Source of the DNA: Antedon mediterranea
Lineage: Eukaryota > Animalia > Echinodermata
Reading direction: 5' to 3'
NCBI RefSeq assembly: GCF_964355755.1
Contig: NC_092678.1
Coordinates: forward strand, 8,448,422 to 8,512,421
Length of the DNA stretch: 64,000 bases
Part shown: in pieces, positions 23,593 through 64,000 of the stretch
How positions within the stretch are numbered: the first letter of the stretch is position 1
Layout of the letters: each line of letters opens with the position of its first letter
The notes under the pieces: generated by a model
Told to the model about the DNA's origin: nothing
The model's input: the letters and a program-made list of their open reading frames with translations, nothing else
Database searches by the model: none
Program-made: the position numbers and the translations under genes

Positions 23593-25725
23593 ATGGGTGC
23601 ACAAGTAAAAAGCTTCCTTTATTGGATTTTGTTTACTATTCAACTGGTATCCTGTCAAAGATTGTCATTACCGAATGAATTTTTAAGTGGTAAGGATATT
23701 TGCGATACGTTTATGTCCGCATTGGGTAAAGTGTGCGACTGTAGCGGACGTTTGTTGCATCTTGTTCCCAGCTATGTTCCGGATGATTGCTTTATACTTG
23801 ATTTAAGTGCTAATGAGATTAGTAACATAGAACGACATACATTTGTGCGATTTCAACAACTTGAAAGGCTATATTTAAATTCAAATAATATACAAGCAAT
23901 TCATCCACATGCTTTTGACGGCTTGAGTAATCTAACAGTTATTGATCTTGCTAATAATAAGTTACTTGAAATTCCACCACGTACATTTACTGATACCAGA
24001 TACTTGCAGGTCCTGAACCTCACTCATAACAATCTTCGTGTTCCACCGACGATTGGACACTTAAACCGTCTACAGGAGTTGATCATATCCCACAATTCAC
24101 TAAGATTCGTAACAAGTTCTGCTTGGACTGGTTTAATAGCCCTTAGAATTCTTAACATATCATCAAATCATTTGGTCAAGTTGTATGCAGATTCATTTAA
24201 AGGGCTTAGGTATGTAGTGACCCTTGACCTCAGTCACAACAGCCTAAACACCATTCAGAATAAGGCTTTTTCATCTTTGGTTCGATTGGAAGTTCTAAAG
24301 TTGAATGATAACCAATTGACAAAAATTGATGAAAATGCATTTCTTGATTTGAGCATGATGACAAGATTAGATCTGCAAAACAATCAGCTGTTTTCTATCC
24401 CACTCAGCTTCCAGAATGGTTTTAGTAGTCTTAAACATTTAAATTTACAAGGAAACAAAATAGTTGAGATATCAATCAATTCGTTCAAACATCTGTCCAA
24501 CCTGAATGTCTTGAACTTAAATGATAATAGATTACAGATCGTAGCTGGTCGATCTTTCTTACTTTTGCCGCAACTAGTGATGCTTGATTTAAGGAATAAC
24601 CAGATTGAAGTATTGCCTGCAGATGTTTTTATTGGTCTTCGAACCCTGAAAGTATTAGATTTGCGTAATAATAGGTTGAAAAATGTCGGAAAAATTATGC
24701 ATCCATTGTTTAACTTGGAAACTGTTCTGCTTTCTGATAATATGATATCTTATATTCCAGTGGATACTTTTGATCAATGTGCGCGCATAATTGAAATACG
24801 AATTGACCATAATAATTTGACTTATATTCCTGAAGGAATTGGACATTCTAAAACTGGTTCTCAGACATTGAAAGGATTATCATTAGCAGATAATCCGATA
24901 AAAGAGATTAGTGCCACCAGTTTTGGCAGATTCTCATCTTTACAGTTACTTCGTTTAAGTAACACCCAGTTAAACATTCTTCCAATTGATGCCTTTACTC
25001 AAATGCCACGATTGCTCCAGTTATGGTTGGATGGAAACCAGTTGACAACACTTCACAAAGGAATGCTTGGTTTTCTACCACGACTTACAGCAATCCACCT
25101 CCAGGGAAACCTCTGGGATTGCCAGTGTGATCTTCATTATTTCTGGTCTTATATGGATTCAAGGGGTATCTCTAGTGGAATTGATGAAAAACCAGTTTGT
25201 CATTCTCCCCCAATTTTATCTGGTGTAACTTTGGAAGTGGCATTTGCTGTGAAAGAATGCTTGGAAGATAATGGTGCGTTTAGCGTGATGGAAATTGAAA
25301 TTCTGATTCCAATCATTGTTGGTGCTATTGTGTTAATGTTCCTTATTGTTGCTTGCATATGCATAACTGCAGGACATAAGAATCCCATATATGCTAAGAC
25401 CATTCCATCTGATGGCAATACAGCAAGAGCAATGTCTCTGCCTTCTTTTGCATCTTTAAACTCAATGTCAAGCTCATCACCATTGACCCTGCCACCACGT
25501 AATGGAACCAATAGCACGCGCTACCATAACCATAGCAGTATATTCCATGAACGCAAGTTACATCGTACAACTCGGCCAAATCTTGACCGACAGGGCTCTT
25601 ATTTGTCTATTAATGTACCCACCCCTGGGGGTGAGTATGCTAGTCCGTATGCCCAGCCATACTCACAACCAAGAGACCATCCGAGCTGGTTCCAGGACTC
25701 TGACCAGAGAGAGGACATTTATTGA
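23593..25725 (+). CDS. LRR-TM receptor 1 (signal peptide, LRRNT, ~20 LRRs, LRRCT, TM, Tyr-containing tail, no TIR)
   Basis: ATG at 23593; uninterrupted ORF; CDCSGR cap; repeated LxxLxLxxNxL; GNLWDCQCDL..C LRRCT; TM ILIPIIVGAIVLMFLIVACICITA; tail SYLSI, EYASPYAQPYSQP, DIY. Candidate 5' UTR splice acceptor TTATTGCAG at 23429. Confidence 0.93.
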   Translation: MGAQVKSFLYWILFTIQLVSCQRLSLPNEFLSGKDICDTFMSALGKVCDCSGRLLHLVPSYVPDDCFILDLSANEISNIERHTFVRFQQLERLYLNSNNIQAIHPHAFDGLSNLTVIDLANNKLLEIPPRTFTDTRYLQVLNLTHNNLRVPPTIGHLNRLQELIISHNSLRFVTSSAWTGLIALRILNISSNHLVKLYADSFKGLRYVVTLDLSHNSLNTIQNKAFSSLVRLEVLKLNDNQLTKIDENAFLDLSMMTRLDLQNNQLFSIPLSFQNGFSSLKHLNLQGNKIVEISINSFKHLSNLNVLNLNDNRLQIVAGRSFLLLPQLVMLDLRNNQIEVLPADVFIGLRTLKVLDLRNNRLKNVGKIMHPLFNLETVLLSDNMISYIPVDTFDQCARIIEIRIDHNNLTYIPEGIGHSKTGSQTLKGLSLADNPIKEISATSFGRFSSLQLLRLSNTQLNILPIDAFTQMPRLLQLWLDGNQLTTLHKGMLGFLPRLTAIHLQGNLWDCQCDLHYFWSYMDSRGISSGIDEKPVCHSPPILSGVTLEVAFAVKECLEDNGAFSVMEIEILIPIIVGAIVLMFLIVACICITAGHKNPIYAKTIPSDGNTARAMSLPSFASLNSMSSSSPLTLPPRNGTNSTRYHNHSSIFHERKLHRTTRPNLDRQGSYLSINVPTPGGEYASPYAQPYSQPRDHPSWFQDSDQREDIY

Positions 25726-31512: not shown

Positions 31513-31584
31513 GCCCCAGTGGTCTAATGGTTAGGACATCTGCATATCAAGCAGGCGGTCCGAGTTCGAGTCTCGGTTGGGGCG
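31513..31584 (+). tRNA. tRNA-like cloverleaf with anticodon ATC (Asp), embedded in a repeat
   Basis: Acceptor GCCCCAG/TTGGGGC, D stem GTCT/GGAC, anticodon arm TCTGC-ATATCAA-GCAGG, T arm CCGAG-TTCGAGT-CTCGG, then TTTTT. Flanks are shared with the copy at ~49900-50090, so it is probably repeat-borne rather than a housekeeping tRNA. Confidence 0.7.
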
Positions 31585-38326: not shown

Positions 38327-38600
38327 CATAGGAAATAACCGGAATGTAGGGTTGTTAGTTCAGGCAATAATATATAATATTGTGACGCCCTTTTTTACGA
38401 CATAGGAAATTATCAATAGGTATACATCCTTATTGTTTTTTTAGATCAACCCATTACCTTAAAGGTATTTATTATATATTAAAACTAAATAGCATATTCT
38501 ACAATTATTTCCTGAATGGTTATATCTTTCTGCTTATATTGAGTGTTCTGTCTTTAAAAAAGCACTTCTTAAAATTCCACTAAATCAACAGTTGACAACA

Positions 38601-40607
38601 ATGCCTTTCAAATATTACACTGTAAGACTTTTTGTCACATTCTTCATGTGGAAATTAGTGAAAGGACAGATCTCTAGGTCTTGTCACTTCACCAGCGGTT
38701 CTGGCTTTGTGATTTGCGATTGCAGTAACCAGGGACTGACTGAAATTACCGAACCACTTGGAGCAGACGTTAGTGTGCTTATACTCCGAAACAACAGTTT
38801 ACAGACAATTTCATCTCAAATTTTTCAGTATTCTTCTCAACTAATTGAATTGGACATCTCTCAAAACCAACTAATATCTATAGAACAAAATGCATTTTCA
38901 AATCTACCAGCGTTACGCCACTTAAATTTGTCTACAAATAAACTAACGAGTTTGGACTCTTCAGTCTTGCGAAATTTGCAACAACTTAGTGTATTGGCGC
39001 TTAATGACAACCAGTTACTTGAGATTCCTATTTTGAATGATTTGCAGAACTTACGATATCTTGATGTTTCTCAGAATCAAATACACACAATTGAATTTCA
39101 GGGTTTTGCTGATTTGAATAATTTGCTTCATTTAAATCTAAGTTCTAACCAGCTCCGAGAACTTAAACCATTATTATTTCAGAGGCAAGTCAATCTTGAG
39201 AACTTAGATCTTTCATATAATTATTTAACAAGTTTTAATTTGTCAATATTCAATGGACTTACTAATCCAAAAATTAGTACACTTAATCTTACAAGGAATG
39301 CATTAAGTTCACTTCCTACAGAACTGTTCACAGAACTAGAAGCAGTGAGAGACTTACAGGTTGCTAAAAACAATATACAAGTTTGGAAAAAGTCTTTCTT
39401 TCATTCAGCTAATGTATTAGAAGTTCTGAATTTGGCTGGGAATAGTATAGCTGATTTGGATGAAAGTATGTTCAGCAGGCAAGCAAAACTTCGCATTTTG
39501 GATCTTTCCAGAAACCGGATAGAGGATATTAAAAGATCTTTATTAGATATTGATCTCCTAGAACGTCTTGACTTGAGTAGGAACAACATTAAGATGCTAC
39601 CAATGAATATACTTTCAAGTCCTTTGCAGCTAAGAGAGATTCTGTTGTCTGAAAACATATTGGATTCCACTCCAGCATTTTCAGGATATCGACTTTTAGA
39701 AGTAATTAAGCTGAATGGGAATAGGATATCTAGAGTGGACGAGAATGATTATTTACAGTTGAGAATGTTAACAGAACTTGATTTGAGTGTTAATTATATA
39801 CAAGAAGTTGATATGAATGCATTTGTACAAGCTACGAGGCTCACCTCTCTTAATTTACAGGAAAACAAACTAAGAACTTTACAAGAGGGCATTTTCATGA
39901 ACCATCAAACACTGATGACCCTTGACCTCAGAAAAAATCCATGGCAGTGTGATTGCACATTGTTTGAATTTCTTCGTTCTATTCCAAACATGGTTCAAAT
40001 TTTAGCTTCGTCAGAGGTCACTTGCCAAACGCCACCTGAATTATTAGGCGAGCCGATTGAAACTGCGACTGTGTGTAGAGATCCAGTTACAGGGAATAAG
40101 CAGCAAAAGAATAGAAGACTAGTAGCTGTTAGTGTCGTTATTCCAATCGTTTTTGTCATCTTTGTAATAATCTTTGCCCGTTGCATAGTAAAAAGGAAAA
40201 TTGCAAATTATCCTCTCACACCTGCGCCTCGACAATCAACGACGGATCCGTCACCGACTCGACAACAAGCATCACCAAATTTAACAAGAACTCTACCTAT
40301 ACCTCCTAATGCTAATTCTAAAGAGGCATCAATTCCTTATTATCTGAGCTTTGGTACATTAAGACCAGAGTATGCAAACCAGTATGACACAATTGACTCA
40401 AAAATTCAAAATCGGAGAATTAACAATTTTCAAGAAAACAGTGGCACTGACGGTTATTTATCACCAAGCGAGATAGAACAATCAACCTACGCTCCGATGG
40501 CAAATATATATTTGAAACCAATAACGGTTCCAGACAATAAAAAAACTGCTACGATGACCAAAGAAATGCCCGATATCGAAGGAAATTATCTCAGCCAAAT
40601 AATTTAA
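38601..40607 (+). CDS. LRR-TM receptor 2 (no TIR; Tyr-rich tail)
   Basis: ATG at 38601; signal peptide; CDCSNQGL cap; ~16 LRRs; KNPWQCDC..CQTP..C LRRCT; TM LVAVSVVIPIVFVIFVIIFA; tail YYLSF, EYAN, QYDTI, GYLSP, TYAPM, IYLKP, NYLSQII. Confidence 0.93.
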   Translation: MPFKYYTVRLFVTFFMWKLVKGQISRSCHFTSGSGFVICDCSNQGLTEITEPLGADVSVLILRNNSLQTISSQIFQYSSQLIELDISQNQLISIEQNAFSNLPALRHLNLSTNKLTSLDSSVLRNLQQLSVLALNDNQLLEIPILNDLQNLRYLDVSQNQIHTIEFQGFADLNNLLHLNLSSNQLRELKPLLFQRQVNLENLDLSYNYLTSFNLSIFNGLTNPKISTLNLTRNALSSLPTELFTELEAVRDLQVAKNNIQVWKKSFFHSANVLEVLNLAGNSIADLDESMFSRQAKLRILDLSRNRIEDIKRSLLDIDLLERLDLSRNNIKMLPMNILSSPLQLREILLSENILDSTPAFSGYRLLEVIKLNGNRISRVDENDYLQLRMLTELDLSVNYIQEVDMNAFVQATRLTSLNLQENKLRTLQEGIFMNHQTLMTLDLRKNPWQCDCTLFEFLRSIPNMVQILASSEVTCQTPPELLGEPIETATVCRDPVTGNKQQKNRRLVAVSVVIPIVFVIFVIIFARCIVKRKIANYPLTPAPRQSTTDPSPTRQQASPNLTRTLPIPPNANSKEASIPYYLSFGTLRPEYANQYDTIDSKIQNRRINNFQENSGTDGYLSPSEIEQSTYAPMANIYLKPITVPDNKKTATMTKEMPDIEGNYLSQII

Positions 40608-41936
40608 TTTTAAAATAGTTACAATATTTAGCAGCCGCCTCACAAACGGACATCTGCCCTAACAGCTACATATTTAATAGCCTGTGTTTCTGTGCTTTCT
40701 TATTTAATTGTTGCATTTGGTATCGACCACCTCCCAGATTTTTTTAATTACAATCCCTATTCAGGGGATATTCCCATTAAGGACACACTAATATCGCAAG
40801 TGTCCTCAATAACGTTCTGTGTAACCCTCAAACTAATGTCCAATCTGAAATTTCAAATGCTAAATGTTTCTAAGGGAAAATATCTCTCAAAAAAGCTTGT
40901 GCGTGGTTGATTACCTAATCATAAAACAGTTAAAAATACAGATTTTTAGATGTATATTATTATACTTATTATATATTATTAGATAATGTAAATATTAGCA
41001 GTGATTAATATAAGGTAAATTAATTTTTTTTTGTAATTTAATAACTTTATCAATAATAATAATTTTTGGCCAGTTTAATAAAGATGATCAATAATAATCA
41101 TATTGTTTATATTATTGTACTTCAGAGAACTGGAAAAGTTCTGGGAGGAACAATAAGATGAAACTGAAATGAATTTTTTATGTGAAAATAGCAATAATTT
41201 GTGACGTCTTTTTCAACATGTTTTACGTCCATCTACCTGTCTAGCCAGTTACACATCAACACCGCAAGCTATCATGCATGTTTTTGAATACCTACACTTC
41301 CTGTTTTTATTCATTTTTACATCACAATCGTCTCTTCCTTTTACAATGAATCATATTTATTTATACAATGTTACAATATAGTATTACCCATTTATGCAGT
41401 TAGTTCTATTCAATATTTTTAAGATTTCCTACATACAAAGTATCAAGTACTGTAAAACAAGCTTCTTTTTTGTTTTACCTGATTCAATATTTTCACTAAA
41501 ATAGATACATGGAAATAGTCATATCCCAAATCTATTGTTGTTAATCTCTGCTTGTTCAATCAAGTTTTTTCAAGTAAGCCCCTTGGGTAAAATTCCTCCA
41601 CTGAAGTAGGCCCTTGATCGGTGTATCTTCCTTGGGCAGATCTTCAGGAAAACGGGTCATGTTTAGTCATACTGAAGGTGTCTATGCTTTGATCTGTTAA
41701 GTCTATTGTCTATCTTATGATTGACTTCAGATGTATATTAAGATTTCATTCTTCTTCAGAAATTACCAGAGTCGACACGTACCATATATGGTTTTCATAT
41801 ATTTATGAGTTTTACTATCATCTGTAAAAGCTGTATTGCACTGAAAATTGATTATGTAGACATTGTTGAAATGAAAATGCAATGTGAAAAAAAATTGTAA
41901 CTTGACAGTCATACATTGTAGCAAGATTACTGAAAG

Positions 41937-43550
41937 ATGTCTACTTATCAAGTCACCATGTGGAAACTAGTTATTGGGTGTCTAACTTGGATAGTTACTG
42001 TTGTAATCTCACAGTCAACCACTACACAATGTGAGGCCTACAGTAACCTCTCAGGAACATATTACAACTGCTCTTCGCGAGGATATAGGTCTGTTCCCAT
42101 GAATATCCCATACAAGGCAGAGATTGTCATACTTAAAAATAACTTTATCAAAGAGATTCGTTCAAATTCATTTGTAAGTTTGACTAATCTTCATTCATTA
42201 GATCTTTCCAATAATCGTATCAATACAATTCAGATGAGTGCGTTTCTAGGCCTGAATAATTTACAGATGTTGAACCTGTCTGGTAACAATCTTGTTTCTC
42301 TAATGCCGGAATTGTTCCGCCCTGTGCGAAGTCTGGAAACGCTGATATTATCGCACAACAGGATTGAGAATATCCAAGCAGAGTTATTGAAAGATCTTGA
42401 CCAGTTGACCACATTAGACCTGTCGAACAACCGGATAAAAGTAATATATGATAACACGTTCTATGATCTTGTCCACCTGCAAGAACTCTATTTGCAATCA
42501 AATAGTATTTCAACCATAACGGACAAGACTCTTAACGGCTTATTGGACTTGGAGTTGCTATACTTGACTCAAAATAAACTTGTCTCAATTTCATCTGAAT
42601 TTAAAGAGCTTACACGACTCAAATTTCTGGATCTTGGAAACAACTTTATAACAACCATTGATAAAGATGCATTTGGTAACTTTGGTCGCCTTACTGAACT
42701 TGGACTTGAGAATAATAATTTATCATCTGTTCCTAAAGCTGTTGGCAAGTCAGCATCTTTACAGTTAACGCTGAGAGAGCTTTATCTCGGTAATAATCCA
42801 ATTCGCGAAATATCTGGTTCTTCATTTGGCAGGTTCACATATCTTGAGGATTTACAATTAGATCACATGAAACTTTCTGAATTAAGCCTTGATGCTTTTA
42901 AAGGAATGCCGAAACTCAGACACCTGTGGCTTAACAGTAACAAGTTGAAAACCATTCAGAAGGAATCCATCATTCCTTTACGGCATTTATTAAAGTTGTA
43001 TTTAGATGAGAATTATTGGAATTGTGACTGCAGCTTATTTGGTTTTCTTCAATATCTTGACCAACATCCAGAACTAGCAACGGAAAAGGTCATTCCATGT
43101 CACACGCCACTAGTACGTGTTGGAGAACCAATTACAAAAGTTCTTGAGTTGTCTTGCGATTTAGAAAGTGAAAATTTCTTTTCCAGATCATCATCAGAAA
43201 CACCAAAAGAGATGACAAAAAAAGATGCACTTTTAGTTGCCATACCTACAACTTTTGTAATGACTATTATGCTGTTAGCGGTTTTGTGTTTGACGACTTT
43301 GTCTGCGAGAAAATGGTTGCAATCATCTGTGAAAAATAAGCAACTTAGCGGGCAACCTCAGCTGAGACGTTATAACCACCAAAGACCCCAAAGAGAACAT
43401 TCTAAAAACTATGGAATTGAAGTGCAGGCTTATGCCACTCTTGAGCCACCTGAACCAAGTCCCTTGCCAACTAGGAAGACTCTCCAGCCCTATGCGTATG
43501 CCTATATTGATAAACGGGGTAGTATGCAAGCGACTGTTAACTTGCATTAA
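41937..43550 (+). CDS. LRR-TM receptor 3 (no TIR)
   Basis: Signal peptide (alternative ATG at MWKLV); NCSSRGY cap; ~13 LRRs; ENYWNCDC..CHTP..C; TM ALLVAIPTTFVMTIMLLAVLCL; tail NYGI, AYATL, PYAYAY. Confidence 0.93.
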   Translation: MSTYQVTMWKLVIGCLTWIVTVVISQSTTTQCEAYSNLSGTYYNCSSRGYRSVPMNIPYKAEIVILKNNFIKEIRSNSFVSLTNLHSLDLSNNRINTIQMSAFLGLNNLQMLNLSGNNLVSLMPELFRPVRSLETLILSHNRIENIQAELLKDLDQLTTLDLSNNRIKVIYDNTFYDLVHLQELYLQSNSISTITDKTLNGLLDLELLYLTQNKLVSISSEFKELTRLKFLDLGNNFITTIDKDAFGNFGRLTELGLENNNLSSVPKAVGKSASLQLTLRELYLGNNPIREISGSSFGRFTYLEDLQLDHMKLSELSLDAFKGMPKLRHLWLNSNKLKTIQKESIIPLRHLLKLYLDENYWNCDCSLFGFLQYLDQHPELATEKVIPCHTPLVRVGEPITKVLELSCDLESENFFSRSSSETPKEMTKKDALLVAIPTTFVMTIMLLAVLCLTTLSARKWLQSSVKNKQLSGQPQLRRYNHQRPQREHSKNYGIEVQAYATLEPPEPSPLPTRKTLQPYAYAYIDKRGSMQATVNLH

Positions 43551-44800: not shown

Positions 44801-46736
44801 GATTATACCATCTTAAAATATAATATATCAAAATTTATTGGATCAGGATCGAGATTTAGGATCCATTCCTGGCCGAGGTCGCAACTCTCTGATTGGCCAG
44901 TGAAAATCAAGACATGACTTTAATTAAAGCTTGGCTTTATTTCGGTCTGTCAATTTTTTAAGAAGTTTCAAAACAGACTTATACAGACTTATACAGAAAA
45001 CTATAATTTGTCTTTTTATTTTTAGTTAAATTGATTGATGACCAGAATTAATTTTATGCCCTTGAGATGAATGTACCGTTGTACATTGATTTTGTTCATT
45101 GTCTTCAAATTACTTTTACATTAAATATTTTACCTCTTTAAACATTTGAATTTATTGATGGTTAATAGTAATATATTATACCATACTGATAGTGATATTT
45201 GTTGATAATTTTTGTAAATAAATTACTTGTATAAACTGCTCACTCATTGCAAGTAAAATAAAGATATTTAAAGGTTTATTCATTCTAATTATAAAATCTT
45301 GTTTTATTTAGTTTTATTATTAAAATTCTTAATTACAACTGCTAATTAGTTGTAAAATTGGTAAAACACATATTCTATCTTTGGTGTAGCTTTCACCAGC
45401 ATCATGTGGCATGAATCTTTAAACATGGCTTTTGGTTCTTTTCACATAATAAATTCTATATTATGTTTTGGACATACATGGTTTTATGCTTTCATACAGC
45501 TTTATTTAATAAATTCGAGAATGTATGTGTTTCTTATGTATACTTTTAAATCAGGAAAATATTTTTTATTATAATAAATGTTTATAAAATTGACAATAAA
45601 AAGAAAACAGTTGTAATGGTGTGTTTACTATTTCAAATTGTTTCCTTTAATTTCTATAAGAGATCCATAATTCTTTGTAAACGTTGACTCTTGACTGAAA
45701 TTCTATGATAAATGACACGGATTACATTTTCCGACAGTACAGATGTTGGTAAAAACCAAGTTTCAACAAATATTAGTTTGTTTCAGCATTTTTAATGCTT
45801 TTGTCTCTCCTCGGCTCTGAAAATGATTAAAATAAATCAAATAAAATGATTTACGCTGAGATTTTGTAGTAAATTCTCTTGTTGTTTGATTGTACATTTA
45901 CTCCAGTAGAACTTGCGCACAATATTGCTGTTCAAATAACTTGCAAACAAGAGGTCTAGAGATTAGCGTGCATAACTTGATCCTCGACAAATAAAGAACT
46001 TATTGCATAATTGTACCAGATGTTATAATTTTGAGTGTTACGATTCACCTAACAAATGCTTTTTTTTATATCAAAGTTTTTAGCATGTAGTAGTTCCTTT
46101 CATTTCATTTTTTGTTTCATTTTTTTCATTTATATATTTGACATCAAAAATGTCGTGGGACCCCAAAAGCAACAGAGTCACCATAACTCCTTCCTTTCAT
46201 CCATGTAAAATCTCTCAGTGAGTTTGATTTACCAGCCTTTGTGAGACTGATACAGACAGACCTTTGGACATTCAAAAGTTTGATTTTGAAATTGGGGGAA
46301 TGATTAATTATTATTTTTTTAATTACCTATTACTTCATTCCATCAAAACTAGTTTTTACAACACGTGTGAATATGTTATATATAGTATAGCATGAATATC
46401 TTGGGAGACCTTGTTACCTTTTGTTCATGTGAAAATTGGGTATTAATGAGTACTGGATTACTATATATAGTAATGTTTTCATATTTCATTTAAAGTATAC
46501 ATTACTATTTTACTAAAGTGAACCAATACGGGGTGTTTATTAAACAAACAGGATTTTATTGCCATTATTTTTCCTTTATCATTTCCCTTTGTAGGTTATG
46601 TACTTTCTATTATCTAGATGGCTGTTGAAAAAAAATCCATTTCATTATTGTTCTACACAAAGAATGTACTGTACATTATTAATATTGATATCCTTATCCT
46701 TTTGTGTTGTTTTGAATCGTGATCATTGGAATAATC

Positions 46737-47747
46737 ATGAGCTCTGTACTGTATACCTTACTCTTGTTTATTTTTCTATGTGTTGATTTCAAGAAAACGC
46801 ATAGTGTAATTATAAAAGGGACTGTACGCATAGAAGTGTTTGACAAATGTCCTCAACATGTTGGTGATTATGTTGAAAATTTCTGTTTTGACAACAACAA
46901 ACAATTTTCTGATCCTGTACCCGTAGGAAAGAATTTTACATTTGTAATGAGAACAGCAAGTTTTCTTATCCGAATGAAAGGAGTTATGTGTGAAGAGTGC
47001 ATTGAAACTATTGCTAATAGTTTGCTTGTTTTAAAATGTGAATTGACAAACAACATGTGCTTATACACGGCTTTAGATAAATTTGTAGAAAGTGTACTGG
47101 AGGAATATTTTGGAGAAAAAGGCTTTCATTCATGCTTTCCAAAAGAGTTCAACAGCACCATAAATATTGGTAATTCCTTTTGTGAAAATGATGTACCAGC
47201 TGGGCTTATGGAAATTATGAAATCCGACCCAGAATGTAAAAATCAAACTAAAGACTTAATAGTAATGCTTCTTGCTGTGGCTCTTGTCGTTTGTTTTGTC
47301 TTTTTTACAATTGCAATTTGTGGAATTTATAAACGTGGTCAAAGAATGATGGTGGAGCTTCAGAAGGACACGCAGCATAGATCTCGACTTCAGCTAAGTT
47401 CATCAGTATCAACAGTGAATCCTGTAATAGATGGTACTCCAGAAGGTTCTGATGTAGAAGATGGCGATGACACCATACCAGATGTTGTTAACCCACTGTC
47501 TCGCAAACCGACCAACTTCCCTATGGTGGAAAATCCTTTGAACAGAGGAAATCGAAATACTTCACTTGATAGTGGAGGTTATGTTGTTCCCGATATGGTC
47601 AATGAAGCGCATCTTTACACCGACCTTACAAAACGGGATACATTAATTGAGGATAATGAAGGTTATGTTTTACCAGATCAACAGTTCCAATTAAAAGATA
47701 CTGTAAATGACTACTTAACTATTTATACACCAGAGTGTGAAGCTTAA
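46737..47747 (+). CDS. Unassigned Cys-rich type I membrane protein, copy A
   Basis: ATG at 46737 (MSSVLYTLLLFIFLC signal); ectodomain with MKGVMCEEC; TM LIVMLLAVALVVCFVFFTIAICGIY; acidic tail with YVVP, YTDL, YVLP, YLTI; paralogous to copies B and D. Confidence 0.88.
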   Translation: MSSVLYTLLLFIFLCVDFKKTHSVIIKGTVRIEVFDKCPQHVGDYVENFCFDNNKQFSDPVPVGKNFTFVMRTASFLIRMKGVMCEECIETIANSLLVLKCELTNNMCLYTALDKFVESVLEEYFGEKGFHSCFPKEFNSTINIGNSFCENDVPAGLMEIMKSDPECKNQTKDLIVMLLAVALVVCFVFFTIAICGIYKRGQRMMVELQKDTQHRSRLQLSSSVSTVNPVIDGTPEGSDVEDGDDTIPDVVNPLSRKPTNFPMVENPLNRGNRNTSLDSGGYVVPDMVNEAHLYTDLTKRDTLIEDNEGYVLPDQQFQLKDTVNDYLTIYTPECEA

Positions 47748-49913
47748 TGTGTTTTAATTAACTTATTAAGCAGGATCAACAGAATAATAGTAGACCAAAA
47801 ATATATGGAGAACTGCATTTAGGATGGACAACATGATTGATATTGAGTTTTCAAGTTGTAATGAGGTTCCAAAAGAGTGATTCAGCTTGATATTGGTAAA
47901 AAGATAAACATTTTGGCATACATGACATGTAATACGTATACTTGAGTTTGAATCACCATCTTCGCACCATGTTTTGTCACCAAGAATTTTAAGGCATAAT
48001 TATCCGGTTGATTAATTTTAGTCTCATGTGATTTACTACTAGTTAATTCTGTATTTTTTTTAAATATATCAGAAAATACTATATTCGGAGAGAGAGGGCT
48101 CACTACTTTAATATTTCGGCTTATGTTAAATTAATACAGAGGGCGTGCTATTTAATATTCCAGCTCATATTATTGAAGATATGTAGGTAACTCAGATTTT
48201 GATCAGCTTTTATGACATCATCAATATAATTTTTTATGAAAATCAATAGGCATGCAATCGAACAAACAATGAGGAACTAAATTTTTGCAAAGTATGTACA
48301 TATTGGGTAAGAATAATAACTAGAACTGCACTGATTTGATATTGTTGATTAAACTTGAGGTCATGTGAACGAATAAATCAGGAGAGGTGGAAGAAGCTCA
48401 GTAGAGAGTGGATCACCTGACAATAGGTATTCTGCCACTAGAGTTGAATTTTATTTTTTTCCTTCATCTCATTTAATTTTTCTTAGATACTTTAACATAG
48501 TTACAAAGCTCAATATCATAAGTAAACAAAAACAAATCATAATAGCAATTTTGTCTTTTTATTTAGTTTCACGTTGCGAGGCGGCTATGACAGATTTGTA
48601 ATTCTTTTTACATGTTTTTGAAGCAGTGTTCTTTAAGGAGATATGTTTCTCAACCTCTAAACTAAATTTCATTCTGTGAAAAAATAATCTGGTCTCTTTT
48701 CTTTACCTTGCAGTTAAATATGAATTGTTTACAATAGAATAAACACATTTACTGGTAAAAGAGACCAGAGTAATTGTTCTAGAGTTTTTAAATAAATGTA
48801 GAAATATACTACATAACGGTTTTAAATGTAGATCTAAATTCCAAATTCCACTACCATAGTGTATTTTCATGCAGAAAGCAACAACAAAAAACGATCGCAT
48901 GACCCATATGGAATTAATTTGTACAATTTAGTTTTTGACATTAAAGACAAATAAATTAAGTGTCTTAAATTTAAGGGTGCCTCAGATAAAAAAGGAACTT
49001 GCTTTTGGTGAACCTGTGTTTTTATATCCTGGTCACAGCACCAATAACATATAATATATCGTTGATTACTATAATATGTTATGTTCCCGACTCCGACAAT
49101 GAATATAAACACTTCAAATATAGTGGTTTTGGATGGCTTTATTCTCACTGAACATTTATGACAACATGTGCTCCATTTTATGATCTTTGTCATCACTATC
49201 TGCCACCCTCTGGTTGTGTTACATTTATATTTATACTTATTTATACTTCACTATTGAAATTGATCTGAATGTTATTTTTGAGAACTTAAGCATACATTCT
49301 GGGAACCAATCCAGGGTGTTTGTTCCACAAACATTTAATTATTTTATGTTTCAGAGCAATAAAAAAATGACATTCCAACGCACAAGCAATTTTGAAAGCA
49401 CTATTAAAATAATCGGTTATTTGAAATTTATCTTGTTGTTGTTATGCAATCGCATTTTGATTTATAACACACTTTAATATTGATTCTTGTCATCTAATTG
49501 AAGGATTTTCGGTCAAATGACTACTACAACTTTTACGTCAGAGTGCATATTCTAGGCCGCCTGTGTCACGCTGTCTAAAATTGTTTAACTCCCTGTCCAA
49601 TTGTATTGCTGCCTTCTAAAATGGTTAAGTGTTGGCCTCTCATTAATAGGTGTGTTATAAAACAAATAATGAATGTCTGATATTTGTGCAATGGGACAAA
49701 TAATTTCATGAGGTGAAGATGAAATGTTTTAACTTGGCTTTGCCTCGTAAATATGACTTATAATCTTTCACCTTTATATGAAATTATTTGCCCCATTGCA
49801 CTCATAACATTTATTATTAATTCGTGAATAAATACTGAAAGATGAGGGTGTATCAGTTTGATCTCTGGTGCACGTATACAATTGTCCAATCGGACTTGAC
49901 CAATACCATGAAA

Positions 49914-49986
49914 GTCCCAGTGGTCTAATGGTTAGGACATCTGAATATCAAACAGAAGGTTTCGGGTTCGAATCTTGGTTGGTGTG
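49914..49986 (+). ncRNA. Second, more degenerate copy of the ATC tRNA-like repeat
   Basis: Same CAATACCATGAAA leader, TGGTCTAATGGTTAGGAC, ATATCAA loop and ~100-bp downstream sequence (TATATCACCGGGCGGTTT) as 31500-31697. Confidence 0.7.
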
Positions 49987-50418
49987 ACTTTTTCTCATTT
50001 TTTTATCTTATCGTTTCAAATTAATTAATATATTTTCAGTATATCACCGGGCGGTTTTTGAATTTGTTCTGTGCCTGTGTTGTTTATAATATATCATCTA
50101 ATGTAATCTCTATAGAGTTCTGAAAACTATTTAATGACATTTTGTTCTTGTGTTTATCATACATGTTGTGGTGTTTTAATGAGAAGCAACACAAAGTGTC
50201 TATTGTACAAAAAGGATTTTATTGTTTATATTTTTCCTTTATCATTTCCTGTTATATTTGCATACTTTATACATATTGGATGGCTGTTGGCAAAAAATAC
50301 CATTTAGTTCTTGTTCTGCATAAAGAACTGACCAAATTACACGAACATAATTATTCTTATTGATATTGTTAATAACACTTTGTTTCTTTTTACATTGAAC
50401 TGTGAACGTTTGATAATC

Positions 50419-51336
50419 ATGAGCTCTCTGCTGTATACCTTACTCTTTTTTGTTTTTTTGTGTGGTAATTTCCAGACGGATAGTATTGTTATACAAGGAA
50501 GGGTAAACATAAAATTGTTTGACTCTTGTCCTGGTAATTATTCTTATGAATTTTGCTTTGTTAATAATAAACTATCTACTACTGTCAAAGGAATGGAATT
50601 TACAAGTAACATAAAAACAGAAAGCTCTGCTGTCATTATGAAAGGAGTTATGTGTAACAACTGTATTGAAATGATTACTGAAAATTTGATCATCTTAAAA
50701 TGCATGTTAGCATTGAACAATGTATGTATGTATAATTTAAACGAATTTGTACTTGGTGTTATGTACAAATATTTTGAAAAAAAGGATTTTTTTCCGTGTC
50801 ATCGGCAGAAATTCAAAAAACGTGTCAACACTGATTCTGTATGTTGGAATGGTATAACAGAATTGGAAAACAAAGACATGACTGTTTTCCTTCTGATTGC
50901 TGGTCTTATAACCTGTATTGTGTTTTTTACGATTTTAATTTGGTGTGTTGATAATCATTATAAACGAAAGATTGTAGAACTTGAAAAAGACACGCAGCAT
51001 AGATCTCAATTTCAGCGAGGACTTTCAATATCAACAGTGAATCCTGTAAGAGATTATTCCTTGGAAGATTCTGATGATATGTATGCTGATGTGTATGATG
51101 GTTCTGATGACATCACTATGCCAGATGTTGTTGATTCACAGTCTCGCAAACCAATCAACTTCCCAATGATGCAAAATCCTTTGAACACAGAGAATCACAC
51201 ATCTTTAGTTGTTGAAAGCAGCGACACGCATCAGTTCACTGGTTCCTCCAACCAGATTGAAATCGGTGAAGATGGCTATTGTAAGCCAAATGTAACAGAT
51301 CTGGTAAAAAGATATTCCCCAAATTGTGAAGTTTAA
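50419..51336 (+). CDS. Unassigned Cys-rich type I membrane protein, copy B
   Basis: ATG at 50419 (MSSLLYTLLFFVFLC); MKGVMCNNC; TM VFLLIAGLITCIVFFTILIWCV; VELEKDTQHRS and SRKPINFPM..NPLN shared with A; ends CEV. Confidence 0.88.
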   Translation: MSSLLYTLLFFVFLCGNFQTDSIVIQGRVNIKLFDSCPGNYSYEFCFVNNKLSTTVKGMEFTSNIKTESSAVIMKGVMCNNCIEMITENLIILKCMLALNNVCMYNLNEFVLGVMYKYFEKKDFFPCHRQKFKKRVNTDSVCWNGITELENKDMTVFLLIAGLITCIVFFTILIWCVDNHYKRKIVELEKDTQHRSQFQRGLSISTVNPVRDYSLEDSDDMYADVYDGSDDITMPDVVDSQSRKPINFPMMQNPLNTENHTSLVVESSDTHQFTGSSNQIEIGEDGYCKPNVTDLVKRYSPNCEV

Positions 51337-52787
51337 TAGAATAACTTTATATAACTTAAATTTATGTAATCTAATATGTTATCTAATTAGAAAATGAAAT
51401 TAGACAATATTGTTAGAATAAAAAACGACAGATAGAGAAGATACAACATGAAGTGTGAAGGAATGTTATTGAGATACACTGTTGAGGAAATTTAGTCATA
51501 AGATGTTTATAAAAATAGAAAATTATATATTCCTCTATTAACAGTTAATTAATTAATTAGTTAATTAATGGGGTTGAAAATTAGATGGATTAAAATCAAA
51601 CTACCTCAAATTAAGACGATTTATGCCTGAGCACCTACTGTAATAATTTGTTAAATTTGTTTGTTGCAAAAATAAATTTATCATCTAACGATCAATGTAT
51701 TTTCATTAAAAAGGTTAAAAAAGGACCAACATGAAATAGGTGCTCGTGGTATAATGCTTGTATTGTTCAAAATTATACTGGTATTACAATCATGCAATTT
51801 CTAGTATAGCGTATTATGCTAGATGACCATTAGTCAATGCATAATAGTTCTACCCCCCATACAGGACAGACCATCTAGTACGTATTTTTCATGAAACACA
51901 TTGATGATATCAATATTTATTAATAATGTAGAATTACTGTTTTATACTTTTACAGTATGCATCAGTTTTTAATTATAGTGTAATGTGAGATCCAATATTT
52001 ATTTACTGCAGCAGGATTTTTAAACTGAAAAAGAAATTACTGCACTACATTTTCAAGCTGTTTTAAGCCCACTAAATAGGCTAATTTCTAATTTTTAAAT
52101 GCACATCCACATAATATTATTGACCACTGATTGTTTTAACATTTTTTTTACCTGATCTGACATTTACTGAAAGACTTGATAGCAAACGATATTTATAAAC
52201 CTAATTGAATAGCCCCATAACAATTGTAAATGTTCAATTCAATCTGGTGAAAATAAATTATTTATACTTGTTTATAATTATATTCTGACTGTTTTTATAC
52301 TTTATTGTTTTGATAATAGATTTTCGCTTATCTTATTTAGTATCTTCATTGAGATTCATGCCCACAGCATTGTGTATTTTAACCATTGTTTTGAAAAAAT
52401 TAATGTATTGTATATTGATATAATATTTAACTGGTTATTTGTTTGCAGAAAATAGTTGTGTACCGATACACCTGTGCCCAAACTAGCTCAGCAGAAAGCA
52501 CATTTGACAAAATACATCAATGACATCATTGAAGACCATTCAATAAATAGATTAAAGTAGAATGTCATTTGCGTGTCTAAAACTGTAAACATACTAGGTT
52601 CTGGTGTTTTACTAAGAACAATTCAATTGTCACATCATCACCATTATTTTTCCTTTCATCACTTCCTTTTGTGGGAGGTGCTTAAACCATAGAGGTAAAA
52701 TTCATTCACGCTTACGGATACTTTGATAGCTATTGGTAAAAATACTTTTTTGTTCTCATCATTCAGTGTTGTGTTGTTAGAATAAAT

Positions 52788-53373
52788 ATGAGCTCTGAGA
52801 TGGTTATCTTGCTGTTTTTTTTTTGAATTTGTAAATTTCAAAACAATATAGTATACAAGGAACAGCCATGCATAGAATGCCCTCATCATGTTGAAAACTT
52901 TTGTTTTGACAATCAAAATAAACTGTTGTCTTTTGATATAGAACGATGGACATATTTTACATTTTCGTTTAAAACATCACATTCATTATTTTAAAAGCAC
53001 CTTTACAGAAGAATTAGGCCTATACATGACTGCAGTCGCGTGCGGAAATGTGAGTTAGTGTTTTCCGACCGACCAACCGACCGCCATAGTGAGCTGTAGA
53101 GTCAAGTTTGCACGCGACTAAAAATGCTAGTTAAGGAACAGATACGTTTTTAGTTTTTCTTAAAAAGACGAGAACTAAGGAGCCTGTCGGATATCCAAAG
53201 TGATGCTGTTCAATCTGAATGAATGGTATTTCAGCCAAGTTTTTTTATATCAACTGTAAACATGAATCCTGTAAGAAATGATGCAGAAAGTTTTTATAAT
53301 GATGACATCACCATGCAATGGTGGAAAATCCATTGAACAGAGCGAGTTGACATGCATCATTTGATAGTGATGC
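52788..53373 (+). pseudogene. Decayed copy C of the membrane-protein family
   Basis: ATGAGCTCT at 52788; TGCCCTCATCATGTTGAAAACTTTTGTTTTGACAA matches the N-terminus of copy A; 53230-53373 matches the tail (STVN..DDITM..MVENPLNR..HASFDSD). The middle is deleted or replaced, including a small element at ~53034-53125. Confidence 0.75.
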
Positions 53374-53783
53374 CAGGCTAGTGTAGTGATCTGGAAGTTG
53401 TGGGTTCATGTTTTTGTTTGTTTATTTTTATATACGGTATACTTAGACAAATTGCCAACGATAACCATAAGCGAATTCATTCACTATCCTTCTTAAGTCT
53501 ACTGTTTTGTTTTTAGAAGCTAAACCACAATTCATGTGTTTCCTGGAAGCCAATCCTGGTTGTTTATTCCACAAAGCAGGATTTTATTGCAATTATTGTC
53601 TTTTAATGTTTCCTTTTGTCTTAATATTGCCTAAAATACAATTCGTTTTGCACATTATAAACTGTCGTCATCATATGCACATGATTATTATTGTATCACC
53701 AAGAATATTTTGTGCTGATAGATTGACTTTTGACCCCCTCTGGAGCTCAGTGACCTCTATGTGGTTATTTTACTACAGTTTAA

Positions 53784-54572
53784 AGTGGCAATTTCCAAAA
53801 AGCATTTTTCTTGGATCTGTGTATAAATTGTCTTCATCAAGACAGATTTTGCATTTTCATTCAGAACATCAATTTTTTTAAAATGCAAAAGAAAGGATTT
53901 ATGTGTGAAAACTGCAGTGAAATTATTGATGTCATCGTGAAATGGATAGCAAACGACACATGCTCGCAGACTGATTTGAATGATTTCATAGGAAGCGTAA
54001 AGGACAAATATTTGAATGAAAATGGATTTAAATCGTATTCCTGTGATGCACAATATGAAAATCAAACTAAAAACTTAATAATATTACTTCTTACTGCGGC
54101 TCTTGTAGTTTGCGTTGTCTTTTTTACGATTGTAATTTGTAGAATGGATAAACGTGGTCGACGAATGATGGTAGAGCTTGAAAAAGACATGCAGCATAGA
54201 TCTCGACTTCAACCAGGTTTGTCAATGTCAACAGTAAACATGGATCTTAAAAAAGATGACGTTTCAAATGAGAATACTTTTGATGACATCACCATGCCAG
54301 ATGTTAACCCACTGTCTCGCAAACCGACAAACTTCCCAATGGTGGAAAATCCATTAAACAGAGGGAATCGACATGCATCATTTGATAGTGATGGTTACAC
54401 CAATCCTGTTAACGTAAATGAAATACATCTGTACTCTGGCCTAAAAAAACATGTTAGTACATCAAGTAGTGAAGATGATGAGGGCTACCTGCTACTCAAT
54501 CAACATTTCTCATTAAAAGAAACAGTAAACGACTATCTAAATCTAAATCCAATCACAGAGAGTGAGGCTTAG
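53784..54572 (+). CDS. Copy D of the membrane-protein family; open from ectodomain to stop but signal-peptide region disrupted
   Basis: Frame open after TAA at 53781: SGNFQK..KKGFMCENC..TM LIILLLTAALVVCVVFFTIVIC..tail YTNP, YSGL, YLLL, YLNL, ends ESEA. Upstream remnants (SSV, LYVVILL) are out of frame and the family ATG is missing. Confidence 0.7.
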   Translation, partial: SGNFQKAFFLDLCINCLHQDRFCIFIQNINFFKMQKKGFMCENCSEIIDVIVKWIANDTCSQTDLNDFIGSVKDKYLNENGFKSYSCDAQYENQTKNLIILLLTAALVVCVVFFTIVICRMDKRGRRMMVELEKDMQHRSRLQPGLSMSTVNMDLKKDDVSNENTFDDITMPDVNPLSRKPTNFPMVENPLNRGNRHASFDSDGYTNPVNVNEIHLYSGLKKHVSTSSSEDDEGYLLLNQHFSLKETVNDYLNLNPITESEA

Positions 54573-56729: not shown

Positions 56730-57602
56730 ATAAAGACGCCTCTCTTGAATACAACACTTTATTTGGTGATCAAAAAATAAAAAAGAAAAAATCAAGTGTG
56801 AAAAATAATGAGGCAGATACCAGTGTAGATGCTAACCAATGTGACCATGACAGCATAGATGGCGCTATATCTGAAACTGGCTCGGATAAAGTAATGAAGT
56901 ATGGATGGCAACATTTTAATAATAGTTTAGAAGATATTTTAAATTCAGAAATGAAGAATGAAAAGTATGATTCGGATTTAGAGGCAGATATGGGAGGTGA
57001 TAAAGATATTACTTGTGGATATGACCAGCAGGTACAATATGATATTGGTAACAAAAGTGACAACAAAACTCAGCCAAGCAATAAAAAAGAACCTGACTTC
57101 ACTAACAAGGTTTCAGATTGGCTACAATATTTGCCATCAACTAATGAAAATAAAACCACCAATCCTGAAAATAAATCTGATTTGTTTGAAAATATCATGG
57201 ATAACACCACTGTGATTTCTGAAGGTAAAGAAATCCTTATTAAACAGGAAATGCAAAAACAAAATTTGACAATGACATTGGTGAGTGGAGATACTGATAT
57301 CCAGGGTGAGAGTGAAAAAACTGAGGAATATTCTGTACCAGATAATCTTATAAAACCAAATTTAGCTCATAATAAACATGAAAAGCTACCTGAAGTACAA
57401 GATAATACAACTCTTACCTGTACCAAAGGGCATGCGTCTCATCTCCCTCATGTTTTATCACCAAAAGTTTCTGAAGATGTAATTATTTCGGACGATGATT
57501 CAACTTATGTGTCTGGTGGTCGACTTTCGCAGGGAAACTCTGACATTCCCGGAACACCAGACTCAAAACAGATGATATACTCAAATAGCAGCTCAAGTCA
57601 AA
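56730..57602 (+). CDS. Probable large internal exon of an unidentified gene (disordered, S/D/E/K/N-rich)
   Basis: ~930-bp open frame starting right after acceptor TTTTTGCAG (56729). Donor uncertain (GTAATA at 57603 or GTGCAT at 57615). No recognisable domain. Confidence 0.6.
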
Positions 57603-58139
57603 GTAATAAGTTAGGTGCATCCAAAGTGTACAAGATGATTAATAGAAGAAATATTAATTTTTAAAATCTGATAACATTTTATATAAAAAATTATAAAAAT
57701 GAATTTCAAACATTTAAAAGTTAGTTCTTACTTATGGTAGAACCTTGTTGAGTTTCCAATCATTGTATTAAAAAAATTAATTTAATAATTATATACAGTT
57801 ATAATTGGTAATCACTTTTCAGGGGGAACTCTAATAAGGGACAATTTGCTGGGTCTTGGAAGGTGTCCTCTTATCAACTAAGTGTCCGTGGATAGTTAAT
57901 TTATTTTTGGAAATTTTGCATGATATTTTTAAACGGGCATCGCACATGATTCCAATAAACTATAAAACTATAATTAACCAACGAAACCATTAAGTCAACA
58001 GTTTAGTGCAATAATAAGAATCCCCTTCATCAAAATATGTGTGCTTTTGTGTCTTGTTCTCACAATGTAATTATTAACAATTGGTAGCATAAAATGGTGA
58101 GAATATTGATAACCATTAATAAAAAAAAAGCTATTTGCA

Positions 58140-60195: not shown

Positions 60196-60324
60196 TTAGA
60201 CAAGACCCATGTACACCAGCCAACACAGCAATAAGCTATTATTTCAGCAACACTACCAATATAAAATTTTGAGGAAGACTGAGAACCACCCTACCAATAA
60301 CTCTCAGCAACGACCTACTCACCC

Positions 60325-60595
60325 TTTTTGGGGTAGCGCAAGTCCGTTTTGGGGTAGCGCAAGTCCGTTTTGGGGTAGCGCACATACGTTTTTTGGTAGC
60401 GCAAGTCCGTTTTGGGGTAGCGCATGTTCGTTTTGGGGTAGCGCACATACGTTTTTTGGAAGTAGCAAGTTCGTTTTTGGGTAGCACAAGTTCGTTTTTG
60501 GGTAGCGCAAGTCCGTTTTGGGGTAGCGCACATACGTTTTTTGATAGCGCACGTTTGTTTTTGGGTAGCGCACGTCCGTTTTGGGGTAGTGCAAG
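60325..60595. repeat. 21-bp minisatellite, ~13 copies
   Basis: Unit TTTTGGGGTAGCGCAAGTCCG with variants. Confidence 0.95.
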
Positions 60596-62087: not shown

Positions 62088-62199
62088 AGTCGACGCTATC
62101 GTAACGATTTACTTCAAAAGGCACTCGCTATCGTTATCATTTCAACTTGATCGCTATCTATAGCCTATTTTTGTAAATAATCTTAAAGTAATTTATCTT

Positions 62200-63832: not shown

Positions 63833-64000
63833 TTCCTATTCTTGTCAGGTGTGTTCCAATTCTTGTCAGGTGTGTTGCTATTCTTGTCAGGTGTGTTGCT
63901 ATTCTTTTCAGGTGTGCTCCTATTCTTTTCAGGTGTGCTCCTATTCTTTTCAGGTGTGCTCCTATTCTTTTCAGGTGTGTTGCTATTCTTTTCAGGTGAG
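63833..64000. repeat. 21-bp minisatellite running off the window end
   Basis: Unit CTATTCTT(G/T)TCAGGTGTG(TTG/CTC), ~8 copies visible. Confidence 0.95.

What the first reader, a model, noticed from the sequence alone, without database searches (positions are those of the whole stretch)
46737..54572. Tandem family of unassigned single-exon Cys-rich receptors with variable ectodomains and conserved tyrosine-motif tails
Seen: four co-oriented paralogues (A and B intact, C decayed, D 5'-damaged) with signal peptide, a short ectodomain (~150 aa in A and B) containing KG(V/F)MCxxC, one TM helix, a conserved VEL(E/Q)KD(T/M)QHRS juxtamembrane block, an SRKP.NFPM..NPLN block and several acidic-context YxxL/I/P motifs. 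I recognise no Ig, LRR, lectin or TIR domain. Established: YxxL/I and YxxP are SH2-docking motifs, and birth-and-death clusters of such receptors typify invertebrate immune and allorecognition loci (e.g. Hydractinia Alr). Inference: this may be an undescribed lineage-specific phosphotyrosine-signalling recognition receptor family.
Basis: partly seen in the sequence, partly recalled or inferred. Interest (0 to 1): 0.85.

Follow-up and report, generated by a model that had tools for sequence, protein, structure and literature searches.

The report
Feather-star orphan receptor gene cluster
Four tandem copies (two intact, one truncated, one decayed) of a gene found so far only in feather stars encode predicted cell-surface proteins with a small outer domain of no known family and a conserved inner tail that likely relays signals through tyrosine phosphorylation, but they show no sign of the diversifying selection expected of self/non-self recognition genes.

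Summary
In detail: A and B are intact, C is decayed, D has lost its start and signal peptide. The window is crinoid. The only homologue among 1.84 billion representatives is the C-terminal part of Anneissia japonica XP_033127435.1, a likely mis-fused model of three genes that shows the same order LRR-TM, LRR-TM, this gene. The ectodomain matches no family; a resemblance to copper-binding HMA domains covers only 20 residues (HHalign 6%). Across crinoids the ectodomain diverged faster than the tail (22% vs 40% identity; neighbouring LRR ectodomains 61% and 81%). Yet both parts are under purifying selection among paralogues (omega about 0.4), and the few haplotypes seen differ by under 1%. There is no ITIM or canonical ITAM; the two best-conserved tail blocks contain no tyrosine, and only two Gly-Tyr sites are ancestral. 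Best reading: an undescribed, crinoid-restricted, non-catalytic single-pass receptor, locally duplicated, that likely signals through adaptor proteins. An immune role is plausible but untested; an Alr-like allorecognition role is not supported. Fold, ligand and expression remain open.

The parts
46737..47747 (+). Gene A, intact single-exon CDS, 336 aa: inferred signal peptide 1-22, ectodomain 23-174 (9 Cys, 3 N-glycosylation sequons), TM 175-197, tail 198-336
   Evidence: frame kept in organism B, 3 of 3 indels in frame
46989..47000 (+). CxxC (A C85, C88), invariant in A, B, D and the Anneissia orthologue; predicted strand-loop-helix setting
47352..47384 (+). Juxtamembrane block (A 206-216), the most conserved stretch of the family; no tyrosine
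   Evidence: invariant columns of alignment A2
47505..47540 (+). Second tail block (A 257-268, K-P...F-x-M-x-x-N-P-L); no tyrosine
47580..47591 (+). Gly-Tyr site 1 (A Y282, YxxP); kept in D and Anneissia, lost in B
47664..47675 (+). Acidic Gly-Tyr site 2 (A Y310); Tyr invariant in 4 of 4; +3 is Pro in A, B and Anneissia, Leu in D
50419..51336 (+). Gene B, intact single-exon CDS, 305 aa (ectodomain 134 aa, 8 Cys; TM 156-178)
   Evidence: in organism B a 90-base skip at 50493-50584, letters between not known
52788..53374 (+). Copy C, pseudogene: stop after 12 codons, frameshifted ectodomain relic 52800-53000, tail relic 53228-53374
53015..53130 (.). High-copy interspersed repeat inside C (bin depth 27,572 vs about 25 for unique DNA in run X1)
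   Evidence: tables 2 and 7
53740..53882 (+). Damaged 5' part of D: ancestral ATG lost, deletions and frameshifts; possible splice acceptor at 53847-53864
   Evidence: acceptor read by eye
53883..54572 (+). Copy D, open frame of 229 aa without signal peptide: 65-aa ectodomain remnant, TM 66-88, full tail
   Evidence: tail omega vs A 0.39, CI 0.24-0.62
54474..54497 (+). D-specific tri-acidic YxxL that fits the hemITAM pattern as defined for Botryllus FcoR
   Evidence: definition
46506..46600 (+). Conserved upstream element shared with B (about 50177), C (about 52641) and D (about 53550); a further copy at 49298-49336
41937..43550 (+). L3: single-exon LRR-TM gene without TIR, 537 aa; syntenic neighbour in Anneissia (78% identical)
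38601..40607 (+). L2: single-exon LRR-TM gene without TIR, 668 aa, Tyr-rich tail; syntenic neighbour in Anneissia (51% identical)
23593..25725 (+). L1: single-exon LRR-TM gene without TIR, 710 aa, three YxxP in its tail; synteny not tested

Best explanation
This is a small family, so far found only in crinoids, of predicted type I membrane proteins that likely act as non-catalytic receptors: a compact, probably disulfide-bonded ectodomain would bind a ligand outside the cell, and the tail would pass the signal on by recruiting adaptor proteins. Shown: gene structure, synteny with LRR-TM genes, purifying selection, conserved tail blocks. Inferred: the two tyrosine-free blocks bind a constitutive partner (kinase, FERM/PTB-type or trafficking protein); clustering leads to phosphorylation of the two acidic Gly-Tyr-x-x-Pro sites, which then dock SH2 adaptors of the Crk/Nck/Abl type (specificity recalled, not from a call) rather than Syk or SHP. 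One ancestral gene at the end of the LRR-TM array was likely duplicated locally to four copies; C died, and D survives as a truncated frame whose site 2 fits the hemITAM pattern.
For: Architecture and single TM. A syntenic crinoid orthologue with the same layout. Invariant tail blocks and Tyr310 in 4 of 4 sequences; site 1 in 3 of 4. omega about 0.4 in ectodomain and tail; fixing omega at 1 lowers lnL by about 5.4 and 8.4. Three of 3 indels in organism B's copy of A are in frame. Paralogues are 48-56% identical to each other and about 30% to the Anneissia protein. Neighbouring TIR-less LRR-TM genes L1 and L2 also carry YxxP in their tails. No catalytic domain.
Against: No phosphorylation, ligand or localisation data exist. 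The best-conserved blocks contain no Tyr. B has lost site 1 and the YxxL sites, and its Tyr contexts are no better than chance (2 of 6, P 0.41). YxxPhi motifs can also be sorting signals (established knowledge). The signal peptide is read by eye. Both structure models are poor (pLDDT 43-44). High third-position identity inside the tail blocks among paralogues (0.8-0.9) suggests that gene conversion adds to their apparent conservation.
Confidence: 0.5

Rival explanations
1. A hypervariable immune or allorecognition receptor under diversifying selection, like Alr or fester/FcoR.
For: Ectodomain 22-27% vs tail 34-40% identical to Anneissia, while L2 and L3 ectodomains keep 61% and 81%. Pseudogene turnover (C, D, perhaps B in organism B). 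Four of 4 within-species ectodomain variants seen are non-synonymous. Single-exon genes with pseudogenes and divergent ectodomains are the pattern of sea-urchin TLRs.
Against: Ectodomain omega about 0.4; A-B 0.43, CI 0.20-0.72. Organism A vs B orthologue of A: ectodomain 9 N/4 S vs tail 5 N/5 S, P 0.42, from 26 listed sites, an incomplete list. Haplotypes differ at 1 and 6 of 1011 bases (A) and 5 of 918 (B). No ITIM or ITAM of 6-9 spacing. Only four copies in this window.
Confidence: 0.15
2. A signalling co-receptor that pairs with the neighbouring TIR-less LRR-TM proteins L2/L3, as FcoR accompanies fester.
For: Order L2-L3-gene conserved between the window and Anneissia, same strand, 1.3 and 3.2 kb apart; RefSeq joins all three in one model; the ectodomain is small.
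Against: L1-L3 carry their own Tyr-rich tails. No charged residue in the TM segments of A, B or the Anneissia protein as cut. L3's ectodomain is 81% conserved while this one is 22%, unlike a constrained partner interface. Synteny within one order is weak evidence.
Confidence: 0.13
3. A non-signalling or trafficking-controlled surface protein (adhesion, gamete surface, cargo receptor) whose tail motifs serve sorting and scaffolding.
For: The two invariant blocks lack Tyr; the N-P-L block resembles NPxY-type sorting motifs without the Tyr (recalled); tyrosine motifs are unstable across paralogues. Fast ectodomain change also typifies gamete-recognition proteins (recalled).
Against: Tyr310 and its acidic-Gly context are invariant; Pro at +3 is not a typical sorting residue (established knowledge).
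Confidence: 0.15
4. The ectodomain holds an HMA-derived, metal- or redox-reactive CxxC, making this an extracellular copper or redox sensor.
For: With the ectodomain profile, 11 of 11 PDB sequence hits at E<=10 are copper-transporting ATPases or a copper-binding protein (best E 7.6e-6, summed over six repeats; best single domain 0.13). An HMA profile scores A above 500 of 500 full shuffles and 500 of 500 CxxC-preserving shuffles. The CxxC is invariant.
Against: Profile-profile match covers 20 columns, probability 6%. With the 22-residue motif fixed and the rest shuffled, 329 of 500 (A), 230 (B), 133 (D) and 152 (Anneissia) shuffles reach the real score, so nothing outside the motif resembles HMA. 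No Pfam HMA hit. The Gly is absent in Anneissia. Extracellular Cys are normally disulfide-bonded (established knowledge).
Confidence: 0.06

Closest known systems
Anneissia japonica XP_033127435.1 / LOC117125143, residues about 1279-1635 (uncharacterised)
   Same: True homologue (E 3.9e-23); same layout, CxxC, tail blocks, two GYxxP, same position after the L2 and L3 orthologues.
   Different: Annotated as the end of one 1635-aa protein with three N-terminal hydrophobic leaders and three TM segments, likely three genes mis-joined; one copy seen there against four here; ectodomain only 22-27% identical.
Hydractinia Alr family (10.1101/2022.03.04.482883; passages seen)
   Same: Clustered single-pass proteins with tyrosine motifs; ectodomains hard to assign by sequence.
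   Different: Alr: 41 genes, multi-exon, Ig and Fn3-like domains, ITAM/ITIM, tails more divergent than ectodomains, highly polymorphic. Here: 4 copies, single-exon CDS, no ITAM/ITIM, conserved tail, low polymorphism in the haplotypes seen.
Botryllus fester co-receptors, FcoR (10.1101/2024.10.16.618699; abstract and section 11 seen)
   Same: Lineage-specific deuterostome receptors with tails over 100 aa bearing acidic tyrosine motifs; D fits their hemITAM definition.
   Different: No sequence similarity found; FcoR have ITIMs, alternative splicing and polymorphic haplotypes; the ancestral motif here is YxxP.
Sea-urchin TLR multigene families (PMC3367398; passages seen)
   Same: Echinoderm, mostly single-exon, pseudogene-rich, divergent ectodomain with conserved cytoplasmic part.
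   Different: No LRR, no TIR; 4 copies, not about 250; no positive selection detected (low power).
Transmembrane adaptor proteins (SIT1, LAT, PAG; features recalled)
   Same: D resembles them: no signal peptide, short outer part, several Tyr motifs; weak Pfam SIT score (E 0.031, 15 bits vs cut-off 27.6).
   Different: Score below threshold and confined to the TM region; A and B have a full ectodomain.
HMA metal-binding domain (Pfam PF00403)
   Same: Strand-Gly-x-x-CxxC-helix motif of about 20 residues.
   Different: No similarity beyond the motif; predicted extracellular.

Membership tests
Hydractinia Alr | V-set/I-set Ig and Fn3-like ectodomain | tested here: inconclusive
   No Pfam Ig hit; models predict strands followed by helices but pLDDT is 43-44; no Ig match listed
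Hydractinia Alr | ITAM (6-9 spacing) or ITIM in the tail of several members | tested here: not met
   0 ITIM in 4 tails; one YxxL-x12-YxxL in D only (definitions)
Hydractinia Alr | Multi-exon coding region with exon shuffling | tested here: not met
   A and B are single open frames from ATG to stop
Hydractinia Alr | High allelic polymorphism | tested here: inconclusive
   0.1-0.6% difference, but only window, X1 and X5 compared, and X1 may be the window's own source
Botryllus fester/FcoR | Ectodomain related to fester | not tested
   No direct comparison made; no such protein came up or 30
Botryllus fester/FcoR | ITIM, hemITAM or YxxI/L/V core | tested here: inconclusive
   hemITAM pattern in D only; core motifs in A (2), B (1), D (3), Anneissia (0)
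Echinoderm TLR / LRR-TM receptors | LRR ectodomain with LRRCT cap | tested here: not met
   No LRR Pfam hit; 12 of 12 local alignments to the LRRCT of L1-L3 at shuffle level, z<=1.3
Echinoderm TLR / LRR-TM receptors | TIR domain | tested here: not met
   No Pfam family in 3 of 3 tails at E<=10
Echinoderm TLR / LRR-TM receptors | Positively selected ectodomain sites | tested here: inconclusive
   Domain-wide omega about 0.4; site models need more than 3 sequences
HMA domain | G-M-x-C-x-x-C motif between strand 1 and helix 1 | tested here: inconclusive
   G-V/F-M-C-x-x-C in A, B, D; Gly absent in Anneissia
HMA domain | Sequence similarity over the whole 62-70 aa domain | tested here: not met
   20 aligned columns, probability 6%; no gain outside the motif; one whole-domain alignment at E 0.13 (1fvq)
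HMA domain | Ferredoxin-like fold | tested here: inconclusive
   Models too poor; none listed near the top
HMA domain | Metal binding | not testable with these tools
   needs protein
TMEM156 (PF15106) | Pfam gathering score 27 | tested here: not met
   1 of 4 members, E 0.0064; 13 bits on the whole fused protein
Non-catalytic tyrosine-phosphorylated receptors (functional class) | Type I topology, no catalytic domain, conserved cytoplasmic Tyr | tested here: met
   As sequence prediction only:
Non-catalytic tyrosine-phosphorylated receptors (functional class) | Ligand-induced Tyr phosphorylation and SH2 recruitment | not testable with these tools
   needs cells

The most novel reading that the evidence does not exclude
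A crinoid-born innate receptor family with a new extracellular fold built round a reactive CxxC, encoded with TIR-less LRR receptors in one conserved recognition locus, in which duplication has just produced a truncated paralogue (D) that switched its YxxP site to a Syk-type hemITAM: the birth of an activating adaptor from a receptor.
Probability: 0.12. Interest if true: 0.8.

Novelty: new variant of a known kind. Interest (0 to 1): 0.45.

Why it matters
Crinoids are the least studied echinoderm class, and none of the paper listings seen describes a crinoid receptor family. A compact ectodomain with no known relative, sitting in a conserved array of TIR-less LRR receptors, is a tractable target for structure and ligand work, and D would show how a receptor can turn into an adaptor. 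It also flags a probable three-gene fusion error in RefSeq. But lineage-restricted membrane proteins are common in invertebrate genomes, the family is small, and nothing here ties it to immunity directly.

Tried and rejected
Homologue searches: 0 of 831 candidates for A and 0 of 3419 for alignment A2, both limited to near lengths; 0 of 599 stretches in metagenome contigs; an L3 query there gave 1 of 288, a 27-residue match taken as a generic LRR hit and not followed. ESM Atlas: no usable hit for the Anneissia ectodomain; the window protein and the tail could not be searched. Structure: two AlphaFold2 models, pLDDT 43 and 44; Foldseek PDB 0 of 585 and BFVD 0 of at least 500 at E<=0.001; VIA-align best Z 4.1 (rmsd 3.2, 57 aligned) and 6.1 (rmsd 3.7, 88 aligned) among 48,161 chains; these absences do not show a new fold. 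LRRCT origin rejected; tails unrelated to L2/L3 tails apart from weak z 2.2-2.6 for A and D against L3 (16 comparisons). SEA- and saposin-like ideas came from memory and found no support in Pfam or PDB sequence searches; they were not tested further. TMEM156, SIT and SecY/exchanger hits are sub-threshold, mostly TM-driven. Expression: no RNA holder listed; run X5, guessed RNA, covers intergenic DNA as deeply as the genes (20.6 and 29.2 vs 16.8-19.9) and repeats at about 10,000, so it was treated as DNA. No whole genome was held, so copy number outside the window is unknown. Earlier findings of the scan: none. Print: 0 papers hold the locus id; listings (titles and abstract starts only; 25 of 40, 15 of 771 and 15 of 34 shown for the larger ones) showed no such family. 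No supplements were read; crinoid genome supplements could list the gene.


Full report
What is there. The window is AT-rich animal DNA. On the + strand lie three single-exon LRR-TM genes without TIR (L1 23593-25725, L2 38601-40607, L3 41937-43550) and then four copies of the gene in question. A (336 aa) and B (305 aa) are open from ATG to stop. C has a stop after 12 codons, frameshifted relics and a high-copy repeat in its middle. D has lost the ancestral ATG and carries frameshifts in its 5' part, but keeps a 229-aa frame with TM and full tail. A profile search of all six frames finds these four copies and no other below E 0.1. All four share an upstream element; a fifth copy of that element lies at 49298-49336. 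The signal peptides are read by eye.

Where it comes from. A has no Pfam family and no near-length homologue among 5.8 billion clusters. A full HMMER scan of 1.84 billion representatives gave 1 hit, P0121 (E 3.9e-23), which is Anneissia japonica XP_033127435.1, a crinoid protein. This 1635-aa model matches L2 (51%), L3 (78%) and then the present family, in the window's order. It reads as three proteins end to end; in the window, stops and 1.3 and 3.2 kb of spacer separate them. I infer a mis-fused annotation, though read-through is not excluded. The window is therefore crinoid (inferred), the gene predates the split from Anneissia, and the four copies likely arose later, since they are 48-56% identical to each other and about 30% to the Anneissia protein. 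Further Anneissia copies could be unannotated or hidden in the 50% cluster. A second organism (runs X6, X7) holds the orthologous locus at about 4% (A) to 9% (B) divergence.

Divergence and selection. Against Anneissia, ectodomain vs tail identity is 22% vs 40% for A (P 0.002), 27% vs 34% for B (P 0.27), 81% vs 80% for L3 and 61% vs 42% for L2. So this ectodomain changes much faster than its neighbours'. But among A, B and D the likelihood peaks at omega about 0.4 for both ectodomain and tail, and omega=1 fits worse by 5.4 and 8.4 log units. Pairwise values scatter: A-B ectodomain 0.43 (0.20-0.72), tail 0.73 (0.43-1.18); A-D ectodomain 0.83 (0.43-1.76), tail 0.39 (0.24-0.62). The ectodomain tree is longer (3.3 vs 2.3), and third positions in the tail blocks are as alike as the others, which hints at gene conversion. 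For A's orthologue in organism B, one search listed 40 of 56 places; I dropped 15 rows that came from the D contig and added one, leaving 26: ectodomain 9 N/4 S, tail 5 N/5 S (P 0.42), signal peptide 2 N, TM 1 S. Its 3 indels (3, 3, 6 bases) are all in frame. Within organism A, 11 coding variants were listed (8 N, 3 S; ectodomain 4 N/0 S); A differs at 1 (X1) and 6 (X5) of 1011 bases, B at 5 (X1) of 918; only 2 of 7 X5 differences on B's contig were listed. These are live genes under purifying selection with no detectable hypervariability, on thin sampling.

The tail. Invariant in 4 of 4 sequences are the juxtamembrane block, the K-P...N-P-L block and the acidic Gly-Tyr310; neither block has a Tyr. 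Site 1 (YxxP) is kept in A, D and Anneissia. The YxxL/I sites of A and D are absent in B and Anneissia. There is no ITIM and no ITAM of 6-9 spacing (definitions from passages of 10.1101/2022.03.04.482883). In D, site 2 has Leu at +3 after three acidic residues and Gly, which fits the hemITAM definition in section 11 of 10.1101/2024.10.16.618699 and recalls the tri-acidic stretch before the Dectin-1 hemITAM (passage of PMC11624271). That pYxxP binds Crk/Nck/Abl-type SH2 domains is recalled, not from a call.

Is D alive? Its tail is constrained against A (pairwise, so A's branch contributes). In organism B the D contig spans 541 window bases in 514 letters; 9 of the missing bases lie upstream of the ATG, and from 54049 to 54363 the lengths are equal (315 vs 315; derived). 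The net frame is kept; stops were not checked. D may be a signal-peptide-less adaptor-like protein, or a 3' exon spliced in at 53864. Both are untested.

The ectodomain. Two AlphaFold2 models are poor (pLDDT 43, 44). The four-sequence model has four strands, then the CxxC, then helices; the single-sequence model has only helices. Fold searches gave nothing. One lead arose: 11 of 11 PDB sequence hits to the ectodomain profile were copper ATPases or a copper-binding protein (that these carry HMA domains is recalled). I built an HMA alignment from 13 prokaryotic domains. The match covers 20 columns at 6% probability, and shuffling everything outside the motif does not lower the score. It is a motif-level likeness, not domain membership. 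An origin from the neighbours' LRRCT was also rejected.

Mechanism and verdict. Most likely a non-catalytic type I receptor: ligand binding outside, a constitutive partner on the Tyr-free blocks, phosphorylation of the Gly-Tyr sites, adaptor recruitment (0.5; all steps after gene structure are inferred). The single-exon, pseudogene-bearing, ectodomain-divergent pattern recalls sea-urchin TLRs (passages of PMC3367398), and the LRR neighbourhood makes an innate-recognition role plausible, but this is guilt by association. The Alr analogy fails on exon structure, motifs and the direction of divergence. No RNA evidence could be obtained. I found no description in print (searches, listings only). 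It is an undescribed family of a known functional kind with an unassigned ectodomain: interest 0.45.

Noticed in passing
P0121 (XP_033127435.1): The RefSeq model joins orthologues of L2, L3 and this gene into one 1635-aa protein; likely an annotation fusion, possibly read-through.
   Followed up: partly
window 23593-43550: Three single-exon LRR-TM genes with Tyr-rich tails and no TIR, only 25-29% identical to each other; L3 is strongly conserved in Anneissia including its tail (80%); L1's tail has an NPxY and three YxxP.
   Followed up: partly
window 50493-50584: In both organism B runs a contig skips 90 bases of B's ectodomain with unknown letters between; B may be deleted or broken there.
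   Followed up: no
window 46506-46600, 49298-49336, 50177, 52641, 53550: Shared upstream element with a CCAAT box and a forkhead-like site (motif names recalled); in A it is followed by a pyrimidine tract and AG at 46596, so there may be a 5' UTR intron.
   Followed up: no
window 31513-31584 and 49914-49986: tRNA-like sequences inside an 81%-identical repeat with very high read depth: probably a tRNA-derived SINE.
   Followed up: partly
window 9636-13001 (-): Intact 1121-aa ORF that looks like a LINE endonuclease/reverse transcriptase (by eye).
   Followed up: no
window 56730-57664 (+): Acidic low-complexity open frame after a splice-acceptor-like site; no Pfam hit; likely a large exon of another gene.
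   Followed up: no
window 60300-62090 and 63735-64000: Tandem repeat arrays; the far end reads as a SET post-domain-like exon on the - strand (by eye).
   Followed up: no
window 47235-47237: A has an odd ninth ectodomain Cys (C167) next to the membrane, absent in B and D; it could form a disulfide-linked dimer.
   Followed up: no
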